Source of the DNA: Escherichia phage BEK12A
DNA: 52,716 nucleotides
Sequence record: MN158210.1
Strand: one strand, 5' to 3'
A program made the translations under genes and the position numbers. Under the pieces are notes generated by a model. It had not been told where the DNA came from. It saw only the letters and a list, made by a program, of their open reading frames with translations, and made no database searches. Every line of letters begins with the position of its first letter. The stretch's first letter is position 1. This document shows positions 1-52,668 of the stretch, piece after piece.

Positions 1-528
1 ATGGCTAAAAATGTTGAGCCTGCTGTAAAGGCATTAAATTTCAAAGAGTTATACAATAAAACTTATGGCGATATTGTCACGCTAAACAACCGCCACAAGT
101 ACACGCCGGAACAGGTTTTTGATATGGCGATCCGCTATTTCACTTGGGCCGAAGAGAATCACATCCAGGCGGCTGAAACTGCTTCCTTTCAGGGTGACGT
201 GTACGAGAGCAGAGTTTACAAGCCTCGCGTTTTCACGGTTAACGGATTCAGCTTGTATCTCGGCGTGACTGAGGCTGCCGTAAGCAAATGGCGTAAAGAG
301 CCTGGATTCTGCGATGTGATGGAGTTTGTTGATAAAGTAATTTACGAGCAAAAATTCCAGCTTGCGGCAAATAACATGATTAACGCTGGATTTATCGGTA
401 AAGAGATCGGAGTAGAGAAGCCAGCAACAGTGAGCGTTGAAGCGAGCGCGGCAGCTAATGCAAGCATTGACGCAGTAACTGCCGATGAGGTTAAAGAGGC
501 TGTGATTGATATTCTGGAGAAGATATAA
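1..528 (+). CDS. putative terminase small subunit
   Basis: 175-aa ORF directly upstream of the terL/HNH block; RBS GGAGGA sits at the extreme 3' end of the window (circular permutation); position-based call. Confidence 0.5.
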   Translation: MAKNVEPAVKALNFKELYNKTYGDIVTLNNRHKYTPEQVFDMAIRYFTWAEENHIQAAETASFQGDVYESRVYKPRVFTVNGFSLYLGVTEAAVSKWRKEPGFCDVMEFVDKVIYEQKFQLAANNMINAGFIGKEIGVEKPATVSVEASAAANASIDAVTADEVKEAVIDILEKI

Positions 529-1019
529 TGAACTACTCAGATTACTTTGTCTTATCTGACGAATCGCCAAGCGGCTTGAAATGGAAGGTTAACAAAGGTA
601 GATCTAAGGTTGGAGATAACGCGATAACTGCTATCAGTGGCGGCTACTATAAAGGCCGCCTTAACCAAAAAACTGTATATGCGCACAGAATTGTGTTTGC
701 ACTTTACTATGGCTTTGAGCCTGATGTTGTTGATCATATTGATGGTGATGGTTTGAACAATAATCCGTTAAATTTAAGGGATGGAACAAAAGCAACGAAT
801 AATCAAAACCGCGTGGTGTTTGGGGCTTACTATCACAAAAGGGATGGTGTTTTTTATTCCTCGATATGTGTTAACGGTGAAAGGTATCATTTAGGAACAT
901 TTAAAAGTGAGATTGAGGCAAGGGCTGCGTACATTTCAGCAAAGCCAAAATTTCACGAGTTCGCAAATATGGAGAGGTATAAACATGCTAATTTGGGAAG
1001 ACTTGACGCCAGCGCATAA
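528..1019 (+). CDS. HNH homing endonuclease (HNH plus AP2-like DNA-binding domain)
   Basis: HRIVFALYYG...DHIDGDGLNNNPLNLRDGTKATNNQNR motif; C-terminal AP2-like segment; overlaps terS stop (ATAATGA). Confidence 0.85.
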   Translation: MNYSDYFVLSDESPSGLKWKVNKGRSKVGDNAITAISGGYYKGRLNQKTVYAHRIVFALYYGFEPDVVDHIDGDGLNNNPLNLRDGTKATNNQNRVVFGAYYHKRDGVFYSSICVNGERYHLGTFKSEIEARAAYISAKPKFHEFANMERYKHANLGRLDASA

Positions 1020-2553
1020 AAGAGCAATCAAGGAAATGAGCGAGCACTCATTCGAAAAGATGATCAGAATATGGTTTCCTCTTTTGCAAGGTCAGAAATT
1101 CTTAGGAAACTGGCATTTCAGCTACCTATGTAGCGAAGTTGAAAAAATAATCAAAGGAGAGTCGCAGAATGTGATTTTCAACATTACGCCAGGTAGCGGT
1201 AAGACTGAGATTTTCTCGATCCACATGTCACCCTACGCGTCATTGAAAAGCCGGAAAGTGAGAAACCTTAACCTTTCGTTTAGTGATGGCCTTGTCCAGC
1301 AAAACAGCAACCGGATAAAGGAGATTATTGGTTCTCCTGAGTGGCAAGAGCTATGGCCTGGAAAACTGGCAAAGGCGAGCGCTAAAGATCTGATAGTCAC
1401 CGAAGGCGGCAAGGTTAAATTGCAAGTTAACTCACGTTCTATTGGCGGCCAGGTAACAGGTTTGCGTGGCGGCTATATGGATGATGGTTTTACTGGTATG
1501 CTGGTTCTTGACGATCCAGACAAGCCGGATGACATGCTTTCTAAGGTCAAGCGCGAGGCTATTCACATGCGGTTAAAAAACACAGTGCGATCGCGTCGAA
1601 TGAAAGACACCACGCCAATTGTTATGGTGCAACAGCGACTACACGTTAATGATTCCACCTGGTTCATGCTTAATGGCGGGATGGGTGGTATTGAGTTTAA
1701 AGTTGTGAGCATTCCGGCGCTGGTTACGAAAGAATACCGCGAAACGCTTCCTGATTGGTTAAGGCATGAGTTTGATCGCGATGTTTTGTCCAGCAAGCCA
1801 GTAATGATTGATGGAGTTGCTCATTATTCATTCTGGCCTGCTAAGGAAAGCGCGGAGGAATTACTTGCACTTCGCAATGCTGATCCGTACACGTTCGCTA
1901 GTCAGTACCAGCAACAGCCTGTTGCGCTTGGCGGTAACGTGTTTAAAACAGAGTGGTTTCAGTATTACGGCAGCAGCGAGAAATGCACGCTACCAAAACC
2001 GGATCGCTTTGAATATACATTTATCACGGTTGATACCGCGCAGAAAACAGGTGAGCTTAACGACTACTCCGTGATCTGTTATTGGGGGATGTATAAAGAT
2101 CGCGTTTACTTCATTGATGGTGTTCGCGGAAAATGGGAAGCACCAGACCTTGAGACTAATTTTGTTGCGTTCGTTAATCAGTGCTGGAAGCGCAATAAAG
2201 AATGCGGAACGTTGCGAAGGATTCATGTTGAAGATAAGTCATCTGGTACTGGCTTGATTCAGAGCGCAGCGAAAAAAATCATGATCAAGATCAATCCCGT
2301 TCAGCGAGATAAAGATAAGGTTACGCGAGCAATGGACGCAGCACCAGTAATGCGCGCCGGACGCGTGGCACTTCCAGAATCGCATCCTATGCTGGCTGAG
2401 ATACTCGCTGAAGTTGCGGCGTTTACATTCGATGATAGCCATCCTCATGATGATATTGTTGACACATTGATTGATGCCGTTAATATAGAAATGAACTTGG
2501 CAGACGATCCAGTTGGAAGAATGAAGAAGTTAGCAGGGCTTAGAAAGAGATGA
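985..2553 (+). CDS. terL: terminase large subunit
   Basis: ATG at codon 27 of the 907..2553 ORF preceded by GGAGAGG; Walker A-like NITPGSGKTE; C-terminal nuclease-like acidic residues; size typical. Confidence 0.85.
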   Translation: MLIWEDLTPAHKRAIKEMSEHSFEKMIRIWFPLLQGQKFLGNWHFSYLCSEVEKIIKGESQNVIFNITPGSGKTEIFSIHMSPYASLKSRKVRNLNLSFSDGLVQQNSNRIKEIIGSPEWQELWPGKLAKASAKDLIVTEGGKVKLQVNSRSIGGQVTGLRGGYMDDGFTGMLVLDDPDKPDDMLSKVKREAIHMRLKNTVRSRRMKDTTPIVMVQQRLHVNDSTWFMLNGGMGGIEFKVVSIPALVTKEYRETLPDWLRHEFDRDVLSSKPVMIDGVAHYSFWPAKESAEELLALRNADPYTFASQYQQQPVALGGNVFKTEWFQYYGSSEKCTLPKPDRFEYTFITVDTAQKTGELNDYSVICYWGMYKDRVYFIDGVRGKWEAPDLETNFVAFVNQCWKRNKECGTLRRIHVEDKSSGTGLIQSAAKKIMIKINPVQRDKDKVTRAMDAAPVMRAGRVALPESHPMLAEILAEVAAFTFDDSHPHDDIVDTLIDAVNIEMNLADDPVGRMKKLAGLRKR

Positions 2554-3032
2554 ATTGGCACGATATTTTCTATATAGAAGATGATAAGCTATTCAATAAA
2601 GTTGATAGGGGAGCAAGGGCAATGGCTGGCAAGGAGGCTGGCTGCTTGCATAAGAATAGCGGTTATGTAGTTGTAAGGGTTGACGATAAGCTGCTAAAAG
2701 CGCATAGGATAATTTACGAAATGCGCCACGGTGCAATACCAGAAGGAATGGAGGTTGACCACATAGACCACAATAGATCAAACAACTCTGACAGCAATCA
2801 TAGGCTGGTTACGCATAAGGAAAATACACAAAACGTAACAAGGAGAAAGACAAACAACAGTGGTTGCACTGGTGTTTATTGGTATGAGTCAAGATCAAAA
2901 TGGTGGTCTTTTATTGGAACTGGCAAGGGCAGAAAATCACTTGGCTATTATTCTGACTGGTTTGATGCCGTTTGCGCCAGAAAGAGAGCGGAGTTTGAGC
3001 TTGGTTATCACGAAAACCACGGCAAGAAATAG
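2550..3032 (+). CDS. HNH homing endonuclease
   Basis: HRIIYEMRHGAIPEGMEVDHIDHNRSNNSDSNHRLVTHKENTQN; paralog of 528..1019; overlaps terL stop. Confidence 0.85.
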   Translation: MNWHDIFYIEDDKLFNKVDRGARAMAGKEAGCLHKNSGYVVVRVDDKLLKAHRIIYEMRHGAIPEGMEVDHIDHNRSNNSDSNHRLVTHKENTQNVTRRKTNNSGCTGVYWYESRSKWWSFIGTGKGRKSLGYYSDWFDAVCARKRAEFELGYHENHGKK

Positions 3033-24447: not shown

Positions 24448-24900
24448 ATGCACGTTATTACAGGTGAGATCCGAAAAGAGCCAAAAGTAAAGCAAATGCC
24501 TAACGGCAGCACGCTATATGTTGTTGAGCTTTCAGAACGATATAAAGACCGTGAAGGCAATTGGCAGTATACAAACTATGTGTTTTTCTTTAACGCGAAA
24601 ACAGACGGCCTGAATGGTTGGTATGCTGAGGCGTTCCAGGTAGGCAAGGTTATTTCTGTTTCCTGCGAAACCTTGCGAGTTGAAACGCGAGAATACAACG
24701 GAAAGATTTACAGCACCGTGCAGCCTGGCGGATTTGCAAGCCTGCTATTTAGCCAGCGCGGAGAAAGTCAGCAACAATATCAGCAGCGAACGCAAGGAGG
24801 CTGGGGGCAACCACAACAGCAACAGCAACAAAACGCTCAACAGCAGCCGCAGCAAAGCAATCAGCCTCCGATTGACTTTGACGATGATATACCATTCTGA
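24448..24900 (+). CDS. ssb: single-stranded DNA-binding protein
   Basis: OB-fold-like N-terminus, Gly/Gln-rich linker and C-terminal acidic tail PIDFDDDIPF diagnostic of SSB. Confidence 0.85.
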   Translation: MHVITGEIRKEPKVKQMPNGSTLYVVELSERYKDREGNWQYTNYVFFFNAKTDGLNGWYAEAFQVGKVISVSCETLRVETREYNGKIYSTVQPGGFASLLFSQRGESQQQYQQRTQGGWGQPQQQQQQNAQQQPQQSNQPPIDFDDDIPF

Positions 24901-33494: not shown

Positions 33495-34610
33495 ATGAAA
33501 AATGTAAAAATTACAGATGAGCAATTCAAGATCGAACGGGCGGCAGGTAAGACATATAAACAGATCGCTCAAGAGTACGGAATGAATGTGAGAAGCGTCG
33601 AGCGTCGCGCGGCGCGTCTTGCAAAGCAAGGACAGTTATCGACCATTGGAGCGCCTGGTTTTGGTGTTCATGGTGAGTCAGTAATGACCGACAAAGAAGG
33701 CAACATAATCCTCAAGTGGACCAAAACCAGCAAGGACAAAGAGCAATTAGAAGCATTGATGCGCGCAGCAATGGAGGCGTTTAGCGAGGAAGTGCCGCGA
33801 TTAGATCCAGTTCCATTGCAGGAGCGTGACTATAATGAAACGCTTTCATTGTATCCGATCTTTGACATGCACTTAGGCGCTATGGCCCATAAGCACGAAT
33901 GCGGCGAAAATTGGGATACTGCGACGGCGGAGCGCGTTATGAATAACTTTATCGACTATGCTTTGATGTGCGCACCTGACAGTGAAAAGGCTGTTATCCT
34001 GATTGGTGGCGACATGCTTCATAGCGATGGCCTGGAGGCTGTGACCCCTGCAAGCGGTCACGTACTTGATCAAGATAGCCGATATGCAAAATTGGTTTAC
34101 GTTGCAATACGTGCAATGCGCCGCGCAATTAATAAAATGCTGTTAAAGCATAAACATGTTGAGGTCCAGATCGTTGAGGGCAATCACGACCAATCAGGAA
34201 TGATTTGGCTACGCGCAGCAATGGCGGCAGCATATGAGAACGAGCCGCGCGTTTACGTTGATGTTTCTCCTCGCGTTGTTCACCACACGCAATACGGAAA
34301 AACTTTCCTTGCGTACCATCACGGGCACACAGTGCGCAAACCTGAGACTTTGCTAATGATGTGCGCGTCAGATTGGCGGGAGGACTTCGGAAACTCAAAA
34401 ACGATGTATGCGCACGTAGGGCACTGGCATCACCAGACCGTGACGGAAACGTCGCTTGGGATCGTGGAGGTACATAGCACCCTGGCGGCAAAAGACGCAT
34501 ACGCCGCGCGCGGTGGCTGGAGATCTCGACGCCGTGCAGCGGTTATCATTTACGACAAAGAGCATGGAGAAGTTGGGCGATTTGTTCACTATCCAGAAAT
34601 GATGAATTGA
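33495..34610 (+). CDS. metallophosphoesterase with N-terminal HTH-like domain
   Basis: calcineurin-like motifs DMHLG, GGDMLH, GNHD, HHGH, GHWHH; N-terminal YKQIAQEYGMNVRSVERR helix-turn-helix-like. Confidence 0.6.
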   Translation: MKNVKITDEQFKIERAAGKTYKQIAQEYGMNVRSVERRAARLAKQGQLSTIGAPGFGVHGESVMTDKEGNIILKWTKTSKDKEQLEALMRAAMEAFSEEVPRLDPVPLQERDYNETLSLYPIFDMHLGAMAHKHECGENWDTATAERVMNNFIDYALMCAPDSEKAVILIGGDMLHSDGLEAVTPASGHVLDQDSRYAKLVYVAIRAMRRAINKMLLKHKHVEVQIVEGNHDQSGMIWLRAAMAAAYENEPRVYVDVSPRVVHHTQYGKTFLAYHHGHTVRKPETLLMMCASDWREDFGNSKTMYAHVGHWHHQTVTETSLGIVEVHSTLAAKDAYAARGGWRSRRRAAVIIYDKEHGEVGRFVHYPEMMN

Positions 34611-36364: not shown

Positions 36365-36686
36365 CGCCCATCTCCCCTATTCTCGCCATATCCCTGATCC
36401 AGTCGTTGCGCATACCATCCAGGCTATACAATTCGAATCCGAAAGGCCGCTTTGATGATCCTTTGGACCAGTATTTTCCGCAGACCCCATCTATATAACC
36501 AGCCGTCATCATTCTTGCGCAAAATTCCTTAGATGCAAGGCTGGCGAACATTCGCGGCGTAAGTCCGGCGGCCCGCGCGAGCCGCTCGCATTCTCTATGC
36601 TGATAGATAAATTTGGCTATGTGCTGCCTGTTAAACCAGTCGTATGACTCACACCATTTATACAGATCAAGCAAAAACATAATCAT
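36291..36686 (-). CDS. hypothetical protein
   Basis: 131 aa, start overlaps stop of ATPase gene. Confidence 0.45.
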   Translation of the reverse strand: MIMFLLDLYKWCESYDWFNRQHIAKFIYQHRECERLARAAGLTPRMFASLASKEFCARMMTAGYIDGVCGKYWSKGSSKRPFGFELYSLDGMRNDWIRDMARIGEMGDDELFQAKANRQDLEALRRKFNIT

Positions 36687-38263
36687 CCCAGCAGTATTGG
36701 ATTGACAAAAATAACACCATTAATCACGCAAACATAATTTCTTTCTTCCAGCATTGGCAGCAAGTGCCCCTCTATCCTCTTCATTACGCCAGCCTGACCA
36801 ACGAAAGGTTTTACCTTTCTCGCTGATTCGTACAGGGCGCGAATATTCAGGATCCCTTTGTTAGCCTTGCCGTGCCTCGTGATCAATTCAATCAATTTAC
36901 CCATTTCAGCATCATCACCAGCATAACCAGAAGCATTGGCGGCGCTAATGTATGTTTTGCTCAATTCATGAAACATGATCAGCGCCTCTTGCATTGTTTC
37001 AACGTCGATCTCTTTCGACTTCTGCGGGTATCCAGCAGGATTAAACCAGTTGCGGATAACATGCAGGACGGAAGCAAGCCTGATCACCTGTTTATCCATT
37101 TTACCCAGCGCACCGCGTAACATTGTATGAGAATACTTTCCGCCGTCTGCAAGATGCGGTTCCATATCCTGGCGAGCAATGTTGAGCACTCGCATAGCTG
37201 AACGGCTTATTTTCAGCGATATATTTGATTCGCTCATGATGTTATGCACCAATTGATAATATTGGGCCTTCAATTCAGGATCCACCGCCTCATAGGTAGA
37301 ATCACCATTTTCATCAATGAATGAGCGACGGCCTAAGAATGATTCCTCACGGACCAACAAAAAGCGCTCACTCACACCGATACCGCGCGATCCAGCGTCC
37401 ATGATTCCGCTTATCGTTTCATCCTGGGCTATAACGCTCATACATCCAAGCGCGCGAAAACTCATGTTATTGTCAGCATTAGCACGGGCGATTGATACGT
37501 GACCATTATCCCACGCCTTAAGCACTAGCTCGCTGTTAGTCTTCCTTTCGCTATTGGCATATGTCAAGCCTAACAGGCTGTTAATACTTGTTGCTTCGTC
37601 AGATATTACGGCAAAGTTACCTTGCTTGTTGTTGATTTTCGCCAAGCCTTCTGGAGTTGTATCTGAAACAGGGAAAGTTATATCACACATTTTTTCCAGC
37701 TTCTCCTCCAGATCCTCTTTTTCCTGGTATAGAGATTCCATATCAGCGCCTGATCTTTCGCTTTTCATCTCCTTTGCAAGACCTGCCAACTTTGCCTGTA
37801 TTTTCTTTCTTTCCTTGCGGCGTTGCTCGTTGATCTTCTCAACTTCCGCAATCATCGGAGCAATAGCCATGCTGTTGATCGCAGATTTACCAGTTGACGG
37901 CGGCTGGCTTGTAACGACGTAAAGCGCAGTCGGCTGATCGGTCCCGTGATAGTCAACCGTAAAGCGTCCAAGCATGGCGGCAGAAATGCAGCCGATAAAG
38001 TGCATGTAAGCCGATGATTCAGGGAATTGAATGGATCGCGCAATACTGCGTGATAACTTTCCGACAACATCAATATCATTACCAAGAGAAATGACGGGGT
38101 AGCGATCGTGACCGCTATTTACATCCTTTACGTCGCCCCAAAAGCTGGACGACTGGCGATAGCCGTTAGCCTGAATTGATACGCGAACTGGTGAAAGGTT
38201 CTGGCTTTCAGCCATAGCGATTATTTGCTGTGGAGTTAATTTGTTCGTTTCTAATGAAAACAT
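36683..38263 (-). CDS. P-loop NTPase of unknown function
   Basis: Walker A-like QPPSTGKS and Walker B-like AVISDEAT separated by a charged coiled-coil segment; RBS AAAGGAG. Confidence 0.5.
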   Translation of the reverse strand: MFSLETNKLTPQQIIAMAESQNLSPVRVSIQANGYRQSSSFWGDVKDVNSGHDRYPVISLGNDIDVVGKLSRSIARSIQFPESSAYMHFIGCISAAMLGRFTVDYHGTDQPTALYVVTSQPPSTGKSAINSMAIAPMIAEVEKINEQRRKERKKIQAKLAGLAKEMKSERSGADMESLYQEKEDLEEKLEKMCDITFPVSDTTPEGLAKINNKQGNFAVISDEATSINSLLGLTYANSERKTNSELVLKAWDNGHVSIARANADNNMSFRALGCMSVIAQDETISGIMDAGSRGIGVSERFLLVREESFLGRRSFIDENGDSTYEAVDPELKAQYYQLVHNIMSESNISLKISRSAMRVLNIARQDMEPHLADGGKYSHTMLRGALGKMDKQVIRLASVLHVIRNWFNPAGYPQKSKEIDVETMQEALIMFHELSKTYISAANASGYAGDDAEMGKLIELITRHGKANKGILNIRALYESARKVKPFVGQAGVMKRIEGHLLPMLEERNYVCVINGVIFVNPILLG

Positions 38264-38335: not shown

Positions 38336-38553
38336 TTGATCCGCTCTATTGCAACCAGAAGTCGATCAGGCTGGCGGTCGCTGTAGCATTCTCCTGTAAT
38401 CCCATCCTTAAACGTAAAGTAAAGCGCCTTATGATATGAAAAACCAATCAGCCAACCTACCGACGTTTTTTTGATGGGCCTGACTATATCGCCAGGCTTG
38501 AAGGTTTTTGTTGCTGAATTAGTAACCTTATAGCGATATTCAGTCTTGATCAT
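38332..38553 (-). CDS. hypothetical protein
   Basis: ATG at codon 40 of the 38670 ORF, overlapping HNH stop; about 73 aa; stop TAG in box. Confidence 0.4.
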   Translation of the reverse strand: MIKTEYRYKVTNSATKTFKPGDIVRPIKKTSVGWLIGFSYHKALYFTFKDGITGECYSDRQPDRLLVAIERIK

Positions 38554-39061
38554 AAGGCTTCTCGCTTCCGTGGTTTTCGTGGAATCCGTACTTTTTCCAA
38601 ATAGCATCTCTTGATGATACAGCGCTATCAATTGATGCATGATAACCACCAGAAATACACCTGCCATCAACAGTTACTTGTACGCACCATTTAGACACCC
38701 TCTTATTCCACATCACGCCAGTATAACCAGATTTATTTGTCGATCTCCTTGTGTGGTTTTGTGAGTTTTGTTTTCTTGTGACAAGCCGGAGGTTTTCGAT
38801 TCTATTGTCATCTCTTATGTGATTCACGTGATCTATCTCCATTCCTTTTGGTATTGTTTTTCCATGCATCCACCAAACAATCCAATGCGCCGGATACTCT
38901 CTGCCACCAATACCTATACGTCTATATCCGTTTTTAGTTATATAACCTGCCTCATCGCCAATTTTTGCCCGTCTTCCTGATGGGCTTTTCCATAATAGAC
39001 GACCATTTTCATATATAAATAAATTTAGAAGTACTTGCCTTGAAATTCCGCTATTGCACAT
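38540..39061 (-). CDS. HNH homing endonuclease
   Basis: HWIVWWMHG...EIDHVNHIRDDNRIENLRLVTRKQNSQN. Confidence 0.8.
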   Translation of the reverse strand: MCNSGISRQVLLNLFIYENGRLLWKSPSGRRAKIGDEAGYITKNGYRRIGIGGREYPAHWIVWWMHGKTIPKGMEIDHVNHIRDDNRIENLRLVTRKQNSQNHTRRSTNKSGYTGVMWNKRVSKWCVQVTVDGRCISGGYHASIDSAVSSRDAIWKKYGFHENHGSEKPYDQD

Positions 39062-39327: not shown

Positions 39328-40010
39328 TTTGAGTTTGACTCAAAGACGGCGCGAGCAAATCCGCGCGGAGTGAGGGAGCGTAGTTGCTTTGTTCTGGCAG
39401 ACTTACCGCCTAAAAACTTCCAACCCCAAAAGAACATTACGCCCTCATCATTGGATAACGGCTTGCGTTCCGGTTCTGTAAATCCGTTGCCGCACCAGAT
39501 AGCAGTCCTTTTTGTGTAGCCATCCTTTAGCGGCATCTTGGGGTGAAAAGATCCATCGGATTCGTCCAGGTAGTTACCAAAATCGCGAGGATTGAAATAA
39601 AAATCAGGCTTGCGCCATAGCGTTGATAGTCGGCCTACAGGATTCTCAGCCATCCAGGGAACACCGAAATGATTCCCGACAGTTTCAACCATGATTGCAT
39701 TTTTGAGCGCAACCTGAATATCATCATCGCTTCGCACGTGCTTGATTCCTGATTGGGCAAACATGGTGCAGTCTGGAAATCCAAATACAATATCTGGTTT
39801 TGGAATACCAATCTTACTGATTCTTTCAATGAAATTTTCATCAATCCACATATTCACATAATGCAGATTTTCATGTTTCATCTTGATGAAATATTCGCCG
39901 TGATTGCCTTCATCAGCGTTAAAGCAATAGCATTGATAGCCAGCCTTCGCATATTCAAGCAGCATGATTCCAGATCCATCAAACATTGAGTAAGCAACTT
40001 TATTTCCCAT
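39324..40010 (-). CDS. putative DNA methyltransferase-like protein (divergent C5-cytosine MTase-like motifs)
   Basis: FDGSG (motif I-like), GFPDCTMFAQSG (PC-motif-like with an insertion), ENPVG (ENV-like); divergent, so assignment is tentative. Confidence 0.35.
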   Translation of the reverse strand: MGNKVAYSMFDGSGIMLLEYAKAGYQCYCFNADEGNHGEYFIKMKHENLHYVNMWIDENFIERISKIGIPKPDIVFGFPDCTMFAQSGIKHVRSDDDIQVALKNAIMVETVGNHFGVPWMAENPVGRLSTLWRKPDFYFNPRDFGNYLDESDGSFHPKMPLKDGYTKRTAIWCGNGFTEPERKPLSNDEGVMFFWGWKFLGGKSARTKQLRSLTPRGFARAVFESNSK

Positions 40011-40527
40011 GATTTTTATGATACCCCAATTCATTCTCGGCTTTACGTTTTGCGGCAACAGCATCTCCAAAACTGGAAAAACAACCTATATAAATCCTAC
40101 TTCCTCTCCTTCCGCCTCCAACCCTTACAACCCATTTGCCATGTTTATTTTTATGCACACCTGGTATGCCACTTGTATTGTTTTTCTGCTTTGATGTGTT
40201 TCGCATATTTCCTTTGTGATCTTTTAACTCAAAGTTTATTGCTCTGTTATCAGTCGTAATGTGATTTACGTGATCAACCTCCTTTCCTTCCGGTATAGGC
40301 CCATAGTGCATTTCATAGCATATTCTATGAACTTTCAGGTTATAACGTTTTCCGTTTACAGTAAGTGCAGTTTCTAAATATCTGCCACCACTACCCAAAG
40401 AGCCAACCTCATTACCAGCATTGCAAGCATTCCATTGTTTAACTCTTGATGGGTGAATATCTTTTCTTTCTTTCCAGAACAGCTTTCCAGTTTCTGGATT
40501 GTATGTAAAGTAATCGTGCCAATTCAT
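40000..40527 (-). CDS. HNH homing endonuclease (HNH plus AP2-like)
   Basis: HRICYEMHYGPIPEGKEVDHVNHITTDNRAIN; C-terminal AP2-like segment similar to 528..1019. Confidence 0.8.
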   Translation of the reverse strand: MNWHDYFTYNPETGKLFWKERKDIHPSRVKQWNACNAGNEVGSLGSGGRYLETALTVNGKRYNLKVHRICYEMHYGPIPEGKEVDHVNHITTDNRAINFELKDHKGNMRNTSKQKNNTSGIPGVHKNKHGKWVVRVGGGRRGSRIYIGCFSSFGDAVAAKRKAENELGYHKNHGK

Positions 40528-44158: not shown

Positions 44159-44187
44159 TTGACACATTAAATAGCATTATTGATAAT
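44159..44187 (+). promoter_or_regulatory. consensus sigma-70 promoter (TTGACA-17-GATAAT) for rightward early operon
   Basis: perfect -35, 17-bp spacer, good -10, about 30 nt upstream of 44216 start. Confidence 0.7.
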
Positions 44188-46601: not shown

Positions 46602-46811
46602 ATGGACCAGAACAAAACAGCAAAATATAAATTCACTGACGACTACGGAGACACTATCGACGTTTATCAGCGTGGGAATCAGATCTTTATAGATGGCACT
46701 TTCGAATATGGCCGGATGCCAGACTTTCGGGGAATACTTTCGGCAGAGAGCGCGCGCCGCATGGCGAACGTGTTAAATAAACTGGCGGCAAAGATTGAGG
46801 CGATGCAATGA
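46602..46811 (+). CDS. hypothetical protein
   Basis: 69 aa ORF. Confidence 0.4.
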   Translation: MDQNKTAKYKFTDDYGDTIDVYQRGNQIFIDGTFEYGRMPDFRGILSAESARRMANVLNKLAAKIEAMQ

Positions 46812-47602
46812 AAAAATACACTTTCGAACTGTGGGGCAAGAAGTACGAATTAATGACCAGTAAGCCGATTGTTATCGTTGACCTGGACGGCACACTATCG
46901 GACGGATCGCATCGTTTGCATTTGCTGCCAACTGAAAACTTGCACCTTACGGAATCGTGGCGCGAGTTTAACAGGGCCGCCGCCGGAGATTCACCGATTA
47001 AAAGCACTATCGCGGTTATTAACGGTTTATGGGTGTCGGGATTTGCCATCGTCATCTTGACCGGACGCAGCGACGAGGTTCGCTATGAAACCTGCAAATG
47101 GTTGAATGAGAACGGCGTGAAGTTTGACGAAATCATCATGCGCCGCCAGGATGACAACCGAAAGGATACGGTTATTAAAGAAGAAGCCTTGCGCGCTATT
47201 GGCCTGGGCAACATTGTTTGCGCCTTTGACGATTCGCCGAACGTGGTTAAGCACTTCCGCAGCTTGGGAATCACAACCTATCAGGTCACGGAATACGACA
47301 AGCCACACGCTCACATACAATCTCACGGCGTGGATGAATTGAAGCCAAAAATCGAATGCGAAGGCGAGCACTGTTTTAGTGTGGTTGATGGTAAATGTTT
47401 GCGTTGCGGCGTGGAATCAATCAAGATCACGAAGCGCGCCCGATTCGTTGGCAGCAAAGATAGCCTTGTCAATGCCAACTTTATAAAAGATAAGGTTTAT
47501 GATGTTTGGAGCTACAACGAAACGGCGTTTCTCGTGTGTGATGAGGCAGGAACGGCCTGGCAGTTTAAGCACGACGACGGCGATTTTGTTAATGCGGAGT
47601 AA
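46808..47602 (+). CDS. HAD-superfamily phosphatase with C-terminal Cys-rich domain (polynucleotide 3'-phosphatase / nucleotidase-like)
   Basis: motif I VIVDLDGTL (DxDGT), motif II-like VILTGR, distal DD; C-terminal CEGEHC...CLRCG zinc-ribbon-like. Confidence 0.55.
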   Translation: MKKYTFELWGKKYELMTSKPIVIVDLDGTLSDGSHRLHLLPTENLHLTESWREFNRAAAGDSPIKSTIAVINGLWVSGFAIVILTGRSDEVRYETCKWLNENGVKFDEIIMRRQDDNRKDTVIKEEALRAIGLGNIVCAFDDSPNVVKHFRSLGITTYQVTEYDKPHAHIQSHGVDELKPKIECEGEHCFSVVDGKCLRCGVESIKITKRARFVGSKDSLVNANFIKDKVYDVWSYNETAFLVCDEAGTAWQFKHDDGDFVNAE

Positions 47603-47608
47603 TTATAA

Positions 47609-47800
47609 ATGGCTGACTTTATGCATCAAATGATTGTTGTATTTAAGGGCAGTGAAGATGAAGAGGTTCGCGAATGCTTCACCATTGAGAAATCATACAG
47701 CGCATCTTTAACCAGTTTTGGCAACATATCTATGATTGATGATAATGGCGATCCGTGGATTTTTGAAGATGATACGGATTGCTTTGAGATTAAAGAATAG
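47609..47800 (+). CDS. hypothetical acidic protein
   Basis: 63 aa; stop TAG in box. Confidence 0.4.
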   Translation: MADFMHQMIVVFKGSEDEEVRECFTIEKSYSASLTSFGNISMIDDNGDPWIFEDDTDCFEIKE

Positions 47801-47840
47801 CACTTTTTGCAAAAACAGATTGTCGGGCTTGCGGTATAGT
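47797..47840 (+). promoter_or_regulatory. conserved box (variant GCAAAAAC) - hairpin - TATAGT module
   Basis: ATAGCACTTTTTGCAAAAAC, GGGCTTGCGGTATAGTAAGCCC, then CATCAACAAACGAGGA. Confidence 0.55.
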
Positions 47841-47868
47841 AAGCCCATCAACAAACGAGGATTAAATC

Positions 47869-48132
47869 ATGGCTAACAAGATCGAGTTTTTTAAAGCGGT
47901 AGACATTATTGATGGCGCTCCGAGCTTCTTTGCCATCCATTCTATTGACGGCAAGGATATTGGGTACAATGTTATCCGTCGAGATGGAATCTCAAAACTT
48001 AGTGACCTGGTAGGTCGAGTTGCGTCAGACGGTAAATGCTCATGCCCCGATTCGAAACGAGAGCCACGCCGCCGCGACATGGTAGAGCCTGTTCTGCTTT
48101 ACACCCTGGTAGTAGAAGGAGAAAATAAATGA
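47869..48132 (+). CDS. hypothetical protein
   Basis: 87 aa ORF with RBS CGAGGA. Confidence 0.4.
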   Translation: MANKIEFFKAVDIIDGAPSFFAIHSIDGKDIGYNVIRRDGISKLSDLVGRVASDGKCSCPDSKREPRRRDMVEPVLLYTLVVEGENK

Positions 48133-48370
48133 TTTGATTACTTGCTTTTTTGGTTGTTTTTCTTTACATTTCAGGCTTATTCACGTTCCGCGCGTTTGCG
48201 AAATATTCTGGCGCGACAGACAAGGACGATAAAATAGTTCTCGCTTTCTGGTTTGTTTGGGTGTGGTTAGTAATTTACGAGATCATCAGAGACAAACAGA
48301 AATTTGATTGGTGATTCTTGCTATGGCGCATTCATGCAGTGCGCCATGTTGAGAAAACCTAAAGGGGGAA

Positions 48371-48514
48371 ATGATGCGTAACTTTGAAAAAATCATTACC
48401 AAAAAGAAGCGTCGCGGGTACGATGAGCATGTGGAGTTTGTGAACAAACAGCGCAAGAAGCGCCATAGACGCGAAATGCTGCATAATATCAACTCACGCT
48501 ATGGAGAAAACTAA
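48371..48514 (+). CDS. small basic protein (47 aa, not in ORF track)
   Basis: ATG after RBS AAAGGGGGA; Lys/Arg-rich; stop abuts next start. Confidence 0.3.
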   Translation: MMRNFEKIITKKKRRGYDEHVEFVNKQRKKRHRREMLHNINSRYGEN

Positions 48515-48706
48515 ATGCAATTGCCACCATTTGACAAAAAAAGCGAAGAGATTGCCAAAACTGCATGTCACCTTCGAGAGCTTGCCGACATGATAGAGCG
48601 CGGTCAGGTTATGATTGTCAATATGACGATCAAAAGCGAGAATAGAAATTTCAAGGTTTTAAGCGAGACAACAGAAATTACCGTCTTGAAAGCAAGGGGA
48701 GAGTAA
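48515..48706 (+). CDS. hypothetical protein
   Basis: 63 aa ORF. Confidence 0.4.
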   Translation: MQLPPFDKKSEEIAKTACHLRELADMIERGQVMIVNMTIKSENRNFKVLSETTEITVLKARGE

Positions 48707-48708
48707 TC

Positions 48709-49299
48709 ATGAAACGAGACATTATCATCCTTAATGGGCCTCCAGGTTGCGGGAAGGACACTATTGCAGCTTACCTAACGGGCCATCGTTACCAAGCGGT
48801 TAAGGCATCATTCAAGCAACCTATGTTCGACATTGCTTTTTCTATGCTTGGCCCGACTCGATACGATGAATTTATGGACCTGTACAACGACCGAGAGCAA
48901 AAAGAAAAGCCTCAAGTTATCTTAGGCGGCAAGTCACCTCGACAATTCATGATCTGGATTAGCGAGGATGTAATGAAGCCAGTTTTTGGGGATCACTATT
49001 TCGGGCGTCGAATGGTTGAAGAGATTCACGAGATGTACCGAGATTTGGCGGTTGTGATCAGTGATGGCGGATTCCCCGAAGAAATCAAGCCGCTCGTTAA
49101 GGCGGGGCATGAGGTGCATATTTGCCGATTGCATCGCTACGGCTTCACGTTTGCTGGCGATTCGAGAGACTACATTGACCTGAGCGGTTATCACTATCGA
49201 ATCCATCACTATGATTTCCACTTGCAGGACGGTAAGCCGGAACTGGCTGTAAACGAGATCGTCAATGCTGTCAAATGGAAGCACACACAGATTAAATAG
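48709..49299 (+). CDS. P-loop kinase (nucleotide / polynucleotide kinase-like)
   Basis: Walker A ILNGPPGCGKDT at extreme N-terminus, typical of small NMP/polynucleotide kinases. Confidence 0.5.
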   Translation: MKRDIIILNGPPGCGKDTIAAYLTGHRYQAVKASFKQPMFDIAFSMLGPTRYDEFMDLYNDREQKEKPQVILGGKSPRQFMIWISEDVMKPVFGDHYFGRRMVEEIHEMYRDLAVVISDGGFPEEIKPLVKAGHEVHICRLHRYGFTFAGDSRDYIDLSGYHYRIHHYDFHLQDGKPELAVNEIVNAVKWKHTQIK

Positions 49300-52638: not shown

Positions 52639-52644
52639 AAATTA

Positions 52645-52668
52645 CCCGCCGCACGGCGGGTTTTTTAT
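52645..52668 (+). terminator. strong rho-independent terminator
   Basis: CCCGCCGCACGGCGGG plus TTTTTTATT. Confidence 0.75.

What the first reader, a model, noticed from the sequence alone, without database searches (positions are those of the whole stretch)
46808..49299. Split polynucleotide-kinase/phosphatase-like pair (HAD phosphatase and P-loop kinase)
A HAD phosphatase with the DxDGT motif and a zinc-ribbon-like tail lies 1.1 kb upstream of a small P-loop kinase, both in the rightward early operon. Together they resemble the two activities of end-healing enzymes such as T4 Pnk, which phages use to repair nuclease-damaged RNA or DNA. No ligase was recognised nearby, so a nucleotide-metabolism role is equally possible.
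Basis: inference. Interest (0 to 1): 0.45.

Follow-up and report, generated by a model that had tools for sequence, protein, structure and literature searches.

The report
Phage phosphatase plus nucleotide-kinase gene pair
This T1-like coliphage carries a T4-Pnkp-type phosphatase gene and, 1.1 kb downstream, a T4-gp1-like nucleotide kinase gene; the two are adjacent or even fused in many other phages, and they look more like a nucleotide-supply module than an RNA/DNA end-repair enzyme, though no one has tested what they do.

Summary
The window is the whole genome of Escherichia phage BEK26 (Drexlerviridae). Both ORFs exist exactly as described.

- **Phosphatase, 46808-47602.** It is a HAD phosphatase of the Pnkp type by sequence and by fold. 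The five documented T4 Pnkp phosphatase active-site residues are all present and invariant.
- **The pairing is real.** In 65 of 80 viral contigs the phosphatase lies upstream on the same strand, abutting the kinase in 29. Three protein clusters are phosphatase-kinase fusions. BEK26 has five small ORFs inserted between the two genes.
- **Nucleotide-metabolism context.** A close phosphatase homolog sits in a td-nrdA-nrdB operon of a T-even-like phage that has its own PseT and RNA ligase. In phage 4MG the kinase overlaps an NT5C-like HAD gene.
- **BEK26 has no recognisable ligase and no tRNAs.**

Verdict: a known, already-annotated accessory pair, most likely serving dNTP supply. An end-healing role is not excluded, because podophage relatives place a metallophosphoesterase, the phosphatase, the kinase and a DNA ligase side by side. 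Interest is modest.

The parts
46808..47602 (+). Stand-alone Pnkp-type HAD phosphatase gene (264 aa): core residues 1-179, Cys/His knuckle module 180-206, small beta-rich C-terminal domain 207-264
46880..46894 (+). HAD motif I, DLDGT (D25 nucleophile, D27 acid-base)
   Evidence: Invariant in alignment A1. Aligns with T4 D165-V-D167-G-T. Residue roles are taken from PMC3592404.
47357..47407 (+). Cys/His cluster C184, H188, C189, C197, C200 (possible zinc knuckle), an optional module of this phosphatase clade
   Evidence: Read directly from the sequence. The module is present in about 205-aa and 264-aa homologs and absent from 179-aa and 236-aa ones. pLDDT is below 50 here.
47426..47599 (+). C-terminal domain of about 58 aa fused to the phosphatase; weakly similar to the next ORF
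   Evidence: BLASTP against ORF 47609-47800 gives E=5e-4. In the sampled loci it occurs only fused to the phosphatase. No PHROG match.
47609..48706 (+). Five small ORFs (63, 87, 54, 47 and 63 aa) inserted between the two genes; they are not part of the module
   Evidence: ORF list. PHROGs of unknown function, and Pfam Phage_1_1 for ORF 48371-48514. In 29 related contigs the phosphatase and kinase abut with nothing between them.
48709..49299 (+). gp1-like P-loop nucleotide kinase gene (196 aa); P-loop GPPGCGKDT at 48736-48762
33495..34610 (+). HTH + metallophosphoesterase protein (PHROG 704, 'DNA repair exonuclease'). It sits 12 kb away here but directly beside the phosphatase-kinase pair in other phages
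   Evidence: PHROG 704 E=6e-149. Weak Pfam Metallophos match. Adjacent to the pair in L048, L056 and L073, and to the fusion gene in L003.
44159..44187 (+). Promoter-like site at the start of the rightward gene block
   Evidence: 11 of 12 consensus matches. This is a consensus match only.
52644..52661 (.). Bidirectional hairpin terminator-like site at the end of the block
   Evidence: 7-bp stem with 6 G-C pairs followed by a T run.

Best explanation
The two genes are a conserved accessory DNA-metabolism module of T1-like and SP6-like phages. BEK26 has it split by later insertion of five small ORFs.

**Kinase.** The downstream gene encodes a T4-gp1-like nucleotide kinase. It most likely uses ATP to convert (deoxy)nucleoside 5'-monophosphates into diphosphates, feeding phage DNA synthesis.

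**Phosphatase.** The upstream gene encodes an active DxDxT phosphatase of the T4 Pnkp 3'-phosphatase type. It most likely removes 3'-phosphates from mononucleotides or short breakdown products, or otherwise trims the nucleotide pool, so that its products enter the kinase step.

**What is shown.**
- Family and fold of both proteins.
- Intact catalytic residues in the phosphatase.
- The conserved phosphatase-then-kinase gene order.
- Overlapping gene ends in many phages, and rare fusions.
- Links of both gene families to nucleotide-metabolism genes in other phages.

**What is inferred.** The substrates, the order of the two reactions, and any physical association between the proteins.
For: **Kinase resembles gp1.**
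- hhalign against gp1 gives 91.8%, E=7e-7, across the P-loop, the helical NMP-binding domain and the lid. Shared positions include GKD-T, D-R-E, D119/E125, R140 and D151.
- Against a T-even PseT, only the P-loop aligns.
- Its viral structural neighbours are mostly annotated as dNMP kinases. One carries the name of a nucleoside 2-deoxyribosyltransferase.

**Context links to nucleotide metabolism.**
- A phosphatase homolog (46% identity, PHROG 415) overlaps the end of nrdB in the td-nrdA-nrdB operon of Krischvirus Ec_Makalu_002. That phage has a separate PseT and RNA ligase A.
- In phage 4MG the kinase overlaps an NT5C-like HAD gene, near ThyX and ribonucleotide reductase.

**The two genes are coupled.**
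- 65 of 80 contigs carry the phosphatase upstream on the same strand, and 29 of them have a gap of -9 to +3 nt.
- Fusion proteins P0257, P0386 and P0265 exist. P0257 occurs on 3 contigs, and the two places shown come from two different sequencing runs.

**Nothing to heal or seal with.**
- BEK26 has no ligase and no tRNA genes.
- T4 Pnkp's phosphatase does accept a 3'-TMP mononucleotide (PMC3592404).

**Published view.** A 2026 paper on T1-like phages already proposes that these two genes extend the replication module and improve nucleotide supply (PMC13164509).
Against: - No biochemical data exist for either protein or for any close homolog. Six literature searches found none.
- The kinase is only about 15% identical to gp1, and no Pfam family reaches threshold.
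- The kinase family lacks a basic residue where gp1 has its D-T-R motif. It reads DGGFxxE instead.
- The phosphatase is closest to enzymes that act on polynucleotide ends.
- No abundant cellular source of 3'-phosphorylated deoxynucleotides is known to me.
- In podophage relatives the pair sits between a metallophosphoesterase and an ATP-dependent DNA ligase, which fits end processing equally well.
- The 80 contigs are related to one another, so the counts are not independent events.
Confidence: 0.5

Rival explanations
1. A true end-healing pair, a split non-canonical Pnkp. The phosphatase removes 3'-phosphate or 2',3'-cyclic phosphate from broken DNA or RNA. The gp1-like kinase has been recruited to phosphorylate 5'-OH ends. 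Sealing is done by the host ligase in T1-like phages, or by the neighbouring phage DNA ligase in podophages.
For: - The phosphatase is Pnkp-type by sequence, fold and catalytic residues.
- Phosphatase and kinase are adjacent or fused, giving the same two classes of activity as Pnkp.
- In roughly 44-kb podophage contigs the order is exonuclease, endonuclease VII, metallophosphoesterase (PHROG 704), phosphatase, kinase, ATP-dependent DNA ligase, with overlapping gene ends.
- The fusion gene in L003 is followed by the same metallophosphoesterase.
Against: - The kinase aligns with gp1 over its whole length but with PseT only at the P-loop.
- No invariant acidic residue follows strand 2, where hydroxyl kinases of this fold carry their general base (the rule itself is from my own knowledge).
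- BEK26 has no ligase.
- A T-even-like phage with a complete PseT and RNA ligase A carries this phosphatase clade as an extra gene in its nrd operon.
- In T7 the proven nucleotide kinase gene 1.7 also lies near the ligase gene 1.3 (my own knowledge), so proximity to a ligase is weak evidence.
Confidence: 0.2
2. Two functionally independent accessory genes that travel together only through shared ancestry of a DNA-metabolism gene block. The kinase is a dNMP kinase. The phosphatase is a DNA 3'-phosphatase or a general acid phosphatase with its own role.
For: - Each gene occurs without the other. 15 of 80 kinase loci lack the phosphatase.
- Kinase-only contexts occur in N4-like, Vibrio and PHROG-221 podophage loci.
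- Phosphatase-only contexts occur in P1 (pap) and Krischvirus.
- P1 pap is dispensable in a CRISPRi screen (PMC10695390).
- In BEK26 the two genes are separated by 1.1 kb.
Against: - Gene order and strand are constant in all 65 loci that have both genes. 29 of them have overlapping or abutting ends typical of translational coupling.
- The pairing spans siphoviruses and podoviruses.
- Fusions persist at 37% identity between P0257 and P0265 and share a linker motif.
Confidence: 0.15
3. The phosphatase, with or without the kinase, acts on some other phosphorylated molecule, such as a signalling nucleotide, pAp or a phosphoprotein, as a host-takeover or counter-defence function.
For: - The clade has a conserved cap insertion of about 14 residues (HRLHLLPT..LHLTESW.EFN) that T4 Pnkp lacks. 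This could set a different specificity.
- BEK26 adds variable C-terminal modules.
- The genes lie among small early-type ORFs.
- Pnkp-type HADs are related to the protein phosphatase Fcp1 (PMC3592404).
Against: There is no direct evidence for this. The neighbouring genes in other phages are DNA and nucleotide enzymes, not known counter-defence genes. The anti-defence library (PADLOC) was not searched.
Confidence: 0.1

Closest known systems
T4 polynucleotide kinase-phosphatase (PseT/Pnkp), C-terminal 3'-phosphatase domain
   Different: It is stand-alone, with no N-terminal Pnk kinase domain. It has an N-terminal beta-hairpin and a cap insertion of about 14 residues. In BEK26 it also carries a Cys/His knuckle and an extra small C-terminal domain. 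No partner RNA ligase is present.
T4 gp1 deoxynucleoside monophosphate kinase (PDB 1dek)
   Different: Only about 15% identity. It lacks gp1's large insertion (196 aa against 241 aa). It has DGGFxxE where gp1 has D-T-R-x-x-x-E. No Pfam dNMP-kinase family was matched. Activity is untested.
Stand-alone PHROG 415 phosphatases: P1 Pap and the gene downstream of nrdB in Krischvirus
   Same: Same clade (PHROG 415, E=1e-51 to 1e-57; 39-46% identity). All lack a fused kinase.
   Different: They have no adjacent gp1-like kinase within the regions fetched. The Krischvirus gene is operonic with ribonucleotide reductase. P1 pap is non-essential.
Bacterial Pnkp (Clostridium thermocellum type: kinase, metallophosphoesterase, ligase) and the Pnkp1/Rnl/Hen1 repair complex
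   Same: Podophage relatives place a metallophosphoesterase, a P-loop kinase and an ATP-dependent ligase side by side. Pnkp1's HAD is the best PDB sequence hit for the phosphatase.
   Different: These are separate genes. The kinase belongs to a different family. The ligase is a DNA ligase of T7 type, not an RNA ligase. BEK26 has no ligase, and its metallophosphoesterase lies 12 kb away.
T7 gp1.7 nucleotide kinase
   Same: Plausibly the same role: a phage-encoded dNMP kinase sitting in the DNA-metabolism gene block near the ligase. This comparison rests on my own knowledge of the T7 map.
   Different: gp1.7 has no P-loop and is not homologous.

Membership tests
T4-type Pnkp (bifunctional 5'-kinase / 3'-phosphatase) | DxDxT HAD phosphatase domain of the HAD_PNKP family | tested here: met
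T4-type Pnkp (bifunctional 5'-kinase / 3'-phosphatase) | Phosphatase active-site residues (T4 D165, D167, S211, K258, D278) | tested here: met
   BEK26 D25, D27, T85, K124 and D142 align with them and are invariant in A1. Residue roles are from PMC3592404.
T4-type Pnkp (bifunctional 5'-kinase / 3'-phosphatase) | Pnk-type P-loop 5'-OH kinase domain | tested here: not met
T4-type Pnkp (bifunctional 5'-kinase / 3'-phosphatase) | Kinase and phosphatase in one polypeptide | tested here: not met
   They are separate genes 1106 nt apart. Fusions exist only in three distant clusters, and with the reverse domain order, phosphatase N-terminal.
T4-type Pnkp (bifunctional 5'-kinase / 3'-phosphatase) | Works with a phage RNA ligase to repair broken tRNA | tested here: not met
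   No ligase is annotated or detected in BEK26. No tRNA genes were found.
T4-type Pnkp (bifunctional 5'-kinase / 3'-phosphatase) | 3'-phosphatase and 5'-kinase activity on polynucleotide ends | not testable with these tools
   Needs enzyme assays.
gp1-type dNMP kinase | NMP-kinase fold with helical NMP-binding domain and lid, closest to T4 gp1 | tested here: met
gp1-type dNMP kinase | GKD-T variant of the P-loop | tested here: met
   GPPGCGKDT. K16 and D17 are invariant and T18 nearly invariant across 58 diverse homologs. gp1 has SGKDT.
gp1-type dNMP kinase | Match to a curated dNMP-kinase family model | tested here: inconclusive
   PHROG 139 'dNMP kinase' E=7.6e-50, but that label is annotation only. 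No Pfam or NCBIfam family reaches threshold.
gp1-type dNMP kinase | Phosphorylates dNMPs to dNDPs | not testable with these tools
   Needs enzyme assays or complementation.
5'(3')-deoxyribonucleotidase (NT5C-type HAD) | Match to the NT5C family | tested here: not met
   NT5C is not among the BEK26 phosphatase's Pfam hits at E<=0.1. An NT5C-like HAD does pair with the kinase in phage 4MG.

The most novel reading that the evidence does not exclude
The phosphatase-kinase pair, with the HTH-metallophosphoesterase (PHROG 704) and in podophages the adjacent ATP-dependent DNA ligase, is a previously unrecognised nucleic-acid end-processing set. In it a gp1-like kinase, not a Pnk-type kinase, supplies the 5'-phosphate. 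This would be a third, independently assembled version of the heal-and-seal toolkit. T1-like and SP6-like phages would use it to repair nicks left by host nucleases. The rare phosphatase-kinase fusions would then be its single-chain form.
Probability: 0.2. Interest if true: 0.6.

Novelty: new member of a known kind. Interest (0 to 1): 0.3.

Why it matters
- **Annotation.** Many phage records label this phosphatase 'polynucleotide kinase' or '3'-phosphatase, 5'-polynucleotide kinase', although it has no kinase domain. The real neighbouring kinase is often left as 'hypothetical' or 'ATP-binding'. Correcting this prevents false inference of RNA-repair capacity in T1-like phages.
- **Biology.** The tight coupling of a Pnkp-type phosphatase to a gp1-like kinase, including fusions, points to an untested step in how small virulent phages feed or protect DNA replication. 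It can be tested directly with two small soluble proteins and a genetically tractable coliphage.

Tried and rejected
- **PDB sequence searches with the kinase.** Single sequence and a 58-sequence profile gave only P-loop matches. They could not separate gp1 from Pnk, so fold and profile-profile comparisons were needed.
- **Literature.** Six searches found no experimental work on the T1-like genes. The retron Eco2 paper matched only through T4 PNK used as a reagent.
- **Metallophosphoesterase replacing the phosphatase.** I considered that the metallophosphoesterase takes the phosphatase's slot in an 'esterase-kinase-ligase' triad. I rejected this because the PHROG 704 metallophosphoesterase is also present directly upstream of the phosphatase in loci that have it.
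- **C-terminal domain as a former separate gene.** I considered that the BEK26 C-terminal domain derives from a separate downstream gene in relatives. No free-standing copy was found in 84 loci.
- **Other long kinase homologs.** Beyond P0257 and P0265, the eight longer homologs scanned showed only disordered extensions or a generic AAA_17 match.
- **'Phosphatase' near the kinase in an N4-like phage.** It is a Macro domain, not a HAD.
- **NT5C 5'-nucleotidase membership of the BEK26 phosphatase.** Not supported.
Full report
**What the window is.** The 52,716-base window is the complete genome of Escherichia phage BEK26 (MN158216.1; Drexlerviridae, Tempevirinae, Warwickvirus). It is rotated so that it starts at the small terminase gene. 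GenBank annotates the first ORF of the finding as '3'-phosphatase, 5'-polynucleotide kinase' and the second as 'hypothetical protein'.

- ORF 46808-47602 (264 aa) carries DLDGT at residues 25-29.
- ORF 48709-49299 (196 aa) carries GPPGCGKDT at residues 10-18.
- Both are on the + strand, 1106 nt apart, with five small co-oriented ORFs between them.
- A promoter-like site (44159-44187) and a strong hairpin terminator (52644-52661) bracket the block. There is no strong terminator in between. The scan totals do not exceed shuffled controls, so a single transcription unit is only plausible.

**The phosphatase is Pnkp-type.**
- It matches Pfam HAD_PNKP (E=1.6e-20) far better than class B acid phosphatase (E=5.7e-10). 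It does not match NT5C.
- Its best PDB sequence relatives are Pnkp1 and the T4 Pnk phosphatase domain.
- A profile comparison with a T-even PseT gives 98.4% probability over the phosphatase half only.
- The residues a T4 Pnkp study names as nucleophile, acid-base catalyst, phosphate contacts and Mg ligand are D165, D167, S211, K258 and D278 (PMC3592404). They align with BEK26 D25, D27, T85, K124 and D142, all invariant among homologs. The enzyme is almost certainly active.
- PHROG 415, to which it belongs, is labelled 'polynucleotide kinase' but covers only this phosphatase. That label is a misnomer.

**The phosphatase has a modular C-terminus.**
- Homologs come as a 179-aa core, as the core plus a Cys/His knuckle of about 27 residues (about 205 aa), or as the core plus a domain of about 58 residues (about 236 aa).
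- BEK26 has both additions (264 aa).
- The knuckle is C184, H188, C189, C197, C200, and is modelled with low confidence.
- The last domain is weakly similar to the next ORF (E=5e-4). No free-standing copy was found in related loci.

**The kinase is gp1-like, not Pnk-like.**
- No Pfam or NCBIfam model reaches threshold. PHROG 139 ('dNMP kinase') matches at E=7.6e-50.
- Fungal tRNA-ligase kinase scores 9.4, and T4 Pnk is not among the 60 listed matches.
- hhalign of a 58-sequence family profile against T4 gp1 gives 91.8% (E=7e-7) over the whole protein. Against PseT it gives 30.9% over 23 P-loop columns.
- The family shares gp1's unusual GKD-T P-loop and several charged positions. It reads DGGFxxE where gp1 has D-T-R-x-x-x-E, so identical specificity should not be assumed.
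- Viral structural neighbours are mostly annotated as dNMP kinases.
- The family is large: 3909 representatives at 50% identity and 1454 phage records across several virus families.

**The pairing is real.**
- Among 80 viral contigs carrying a kinase homolog (43-98% identity), 65 have the phosphatase upstream on the same strand.
- In 29 of these the two genes abut or overlap (gap -9 to +3 nt). In 36 they are separated by 50-2073 nt. 15 lack the phosphatase.
- These contigs are related to one another, so the counts are not independent. They do include both T1-like siphoviruses and podoviruses of about 44 kb. The Aeromonas podovirus ZPAH7 shows the same overlap.
- Three protein clusters are fusions with the phosphatase N-terminal and the kinase C-terminal: P0257, P0386 and P0265. 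P0257 and P0265 are 37% identical and share a linker motif. P0257 occurs on three contigs, and the two places shown come from two different sequencing runs.
- BEK26's 'split' state therefore looks derived, through insertion of small ORFs.

**What the context says: nucleotide metabolism.**
- Krischvirus Ec_Makalu_002 carries a 46%-identical phosphatase overlapping the end of nrdB in a td-nrdA-nrdB operon. It also has its own PseT and RNA ligase A a few kb away.
- In phage 4MG the kinase overlaps an NT5C-like HAD gene, near ThyX and ribonucleotide reductase.
- 19 of 265 kinase homologs end in DDIPW or a close variant (DEIPW, DGLPW), resembling the DFDDDIPF tip of BEK26's own SSB. This hints at replisome association.
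- A 2026 paper on T1-like phages already notes the pair and suggests it boosts nucleotide supply (PMC13164509).

**What the context says: end processing.**
- In podophage contigs the order is exonuclease, endonuclease VII, HTH-metallophosphoesterase (PHROG 704), phosphatase, kinase, ATP-dependent DNA ligase.
- One subgroup has a metallophosphoesterase (PHROG 221), the kinase and the ligase, but no phosphatase.
- The fusion gene in L003 is followed by the PHROG 704 gene.
- BEK26 has that metallophosphoesterase 12 kb away (33495-34610).
- Such phages cluster all their DNA-metabolism genes. T7's proven nucleotide kinase also lies near its ligase (my own knowledge). I therefore treat this as weak but real support for end healing.

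**Conclusion.**
- The best-supported reading (about 0.5) is a nucleotide-supply module. A gp1-like (d)NMP kinase is coupled to a Pnkp-type phosphatase that acts on 3'-phosphorylated nucleotides or small breakdown products.
- A true end-healing pair with an unconventional kinase remains possible (about 0.2).
- Independent functions linked only by synteny (about 0.15) and another phospho-substrate (about 0.1) are the remaining options.
- BEK26 has no ligase and no tRNAs.
- Nothing here is new as a gene family. The pair is annotated in dozens of relatives.
- The open question is biochemical, and simple assays would settle it.

Noticed in passing
window 47345-47599, compared with homologs P0002-P0116: The phosphatase C-terminus is built from optional modules, giving variants of 179, about 205, about 236 and 264 aa. 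The junctions repeat a short GV(D/E)xxK peptide (HGVDELK ... CGVESIK), which suggests recombination at a short repeat.
   Followed up: partly
window 47609-47800: This 63-aa ORF (PHROG 11551) is weakly similar to the last domain of the phosphatase just upstream (30% identity over 44 residues, pairwise E=5e-4). It may be a small duplicated domain.
   Followed up: partly
window 48371-48514: A 47-aa basic ORF between the two genes matches Pfam Phage_1_1, the T7 gene 1.1 protein (E=6.8e-5, 23.7 bits against a cut-off of 21).
   Followed up: no
kinase homologs P0180, P0202, P0216, P0228 and others; BEK26 SSB at window 24448-24900: 19 of 265 kinase homologs end in an acidic DDIPW or a close variant (DEIPW, DGLPW), resembling the SSB C-terminal tip. 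BEK26's own SSB ends DFDDDIPF. The BEK26 kinase lacks this tail. It may be a replisome or SSB-partner docking motif.
   Followed up: partly
window 33495-34610: A 371-aa 'hypothetical protein' is an HTH + metallophosphoesterase (PHROG 704, 'DNA repair exonuclease'). In other phages it sits directly next to the phosphatase-kinase pair or the fusion gene.
   Followed up: partly
L086 4998-5474 (Escherichia phage Ec_Makalu_002): A stand-alone Pnkp-type phosphatase overlaps the end of nrdB in a td-nrdA-nrdB operon. The phage also encodes a full PseT and RNA ligase A.
   Followed up: partly
L090 2998-4198 (Escherichia phage 4MG): The kinase homolog overlaps a downstream NT5C-like HAD gene (PHROG 420, motif DVDLT), near ThyX and ribonucleotide reductase. 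This is a second, independent kinase-plus-HAD pairing, in the reverse gene order.
   Followed up: partly
BFVD hit A0A7S6HV70 (Escherichia phage JEP1, 518 aa): A kinase homolog is annotated as containing a DOD-type homing endonuclease domain, which suggests an intein inserted in the kinase gene.
   Followed up: no
window 1-3032: According to the record's annotation, homing endonuclease genes sit after both the small and the large terminase genes. Two more lie at window 38540-39061 and 40000-40527.
   Followed up: no
GenBank records MG065687.1 and MG065649.1: Records named 'Campylobacter phage A136/A143' hold T1-like sequence about 80% identical to BEK26 proteins. About 9 records with this host label match the DNA query and 39 match the kinase protein. 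The host label looks doubtful.
   Followed up: no
window 36683-38263 (- strand): A 526-aa hypothetical protein matches DUF3987 (E=8e-44).
   Followed up: no
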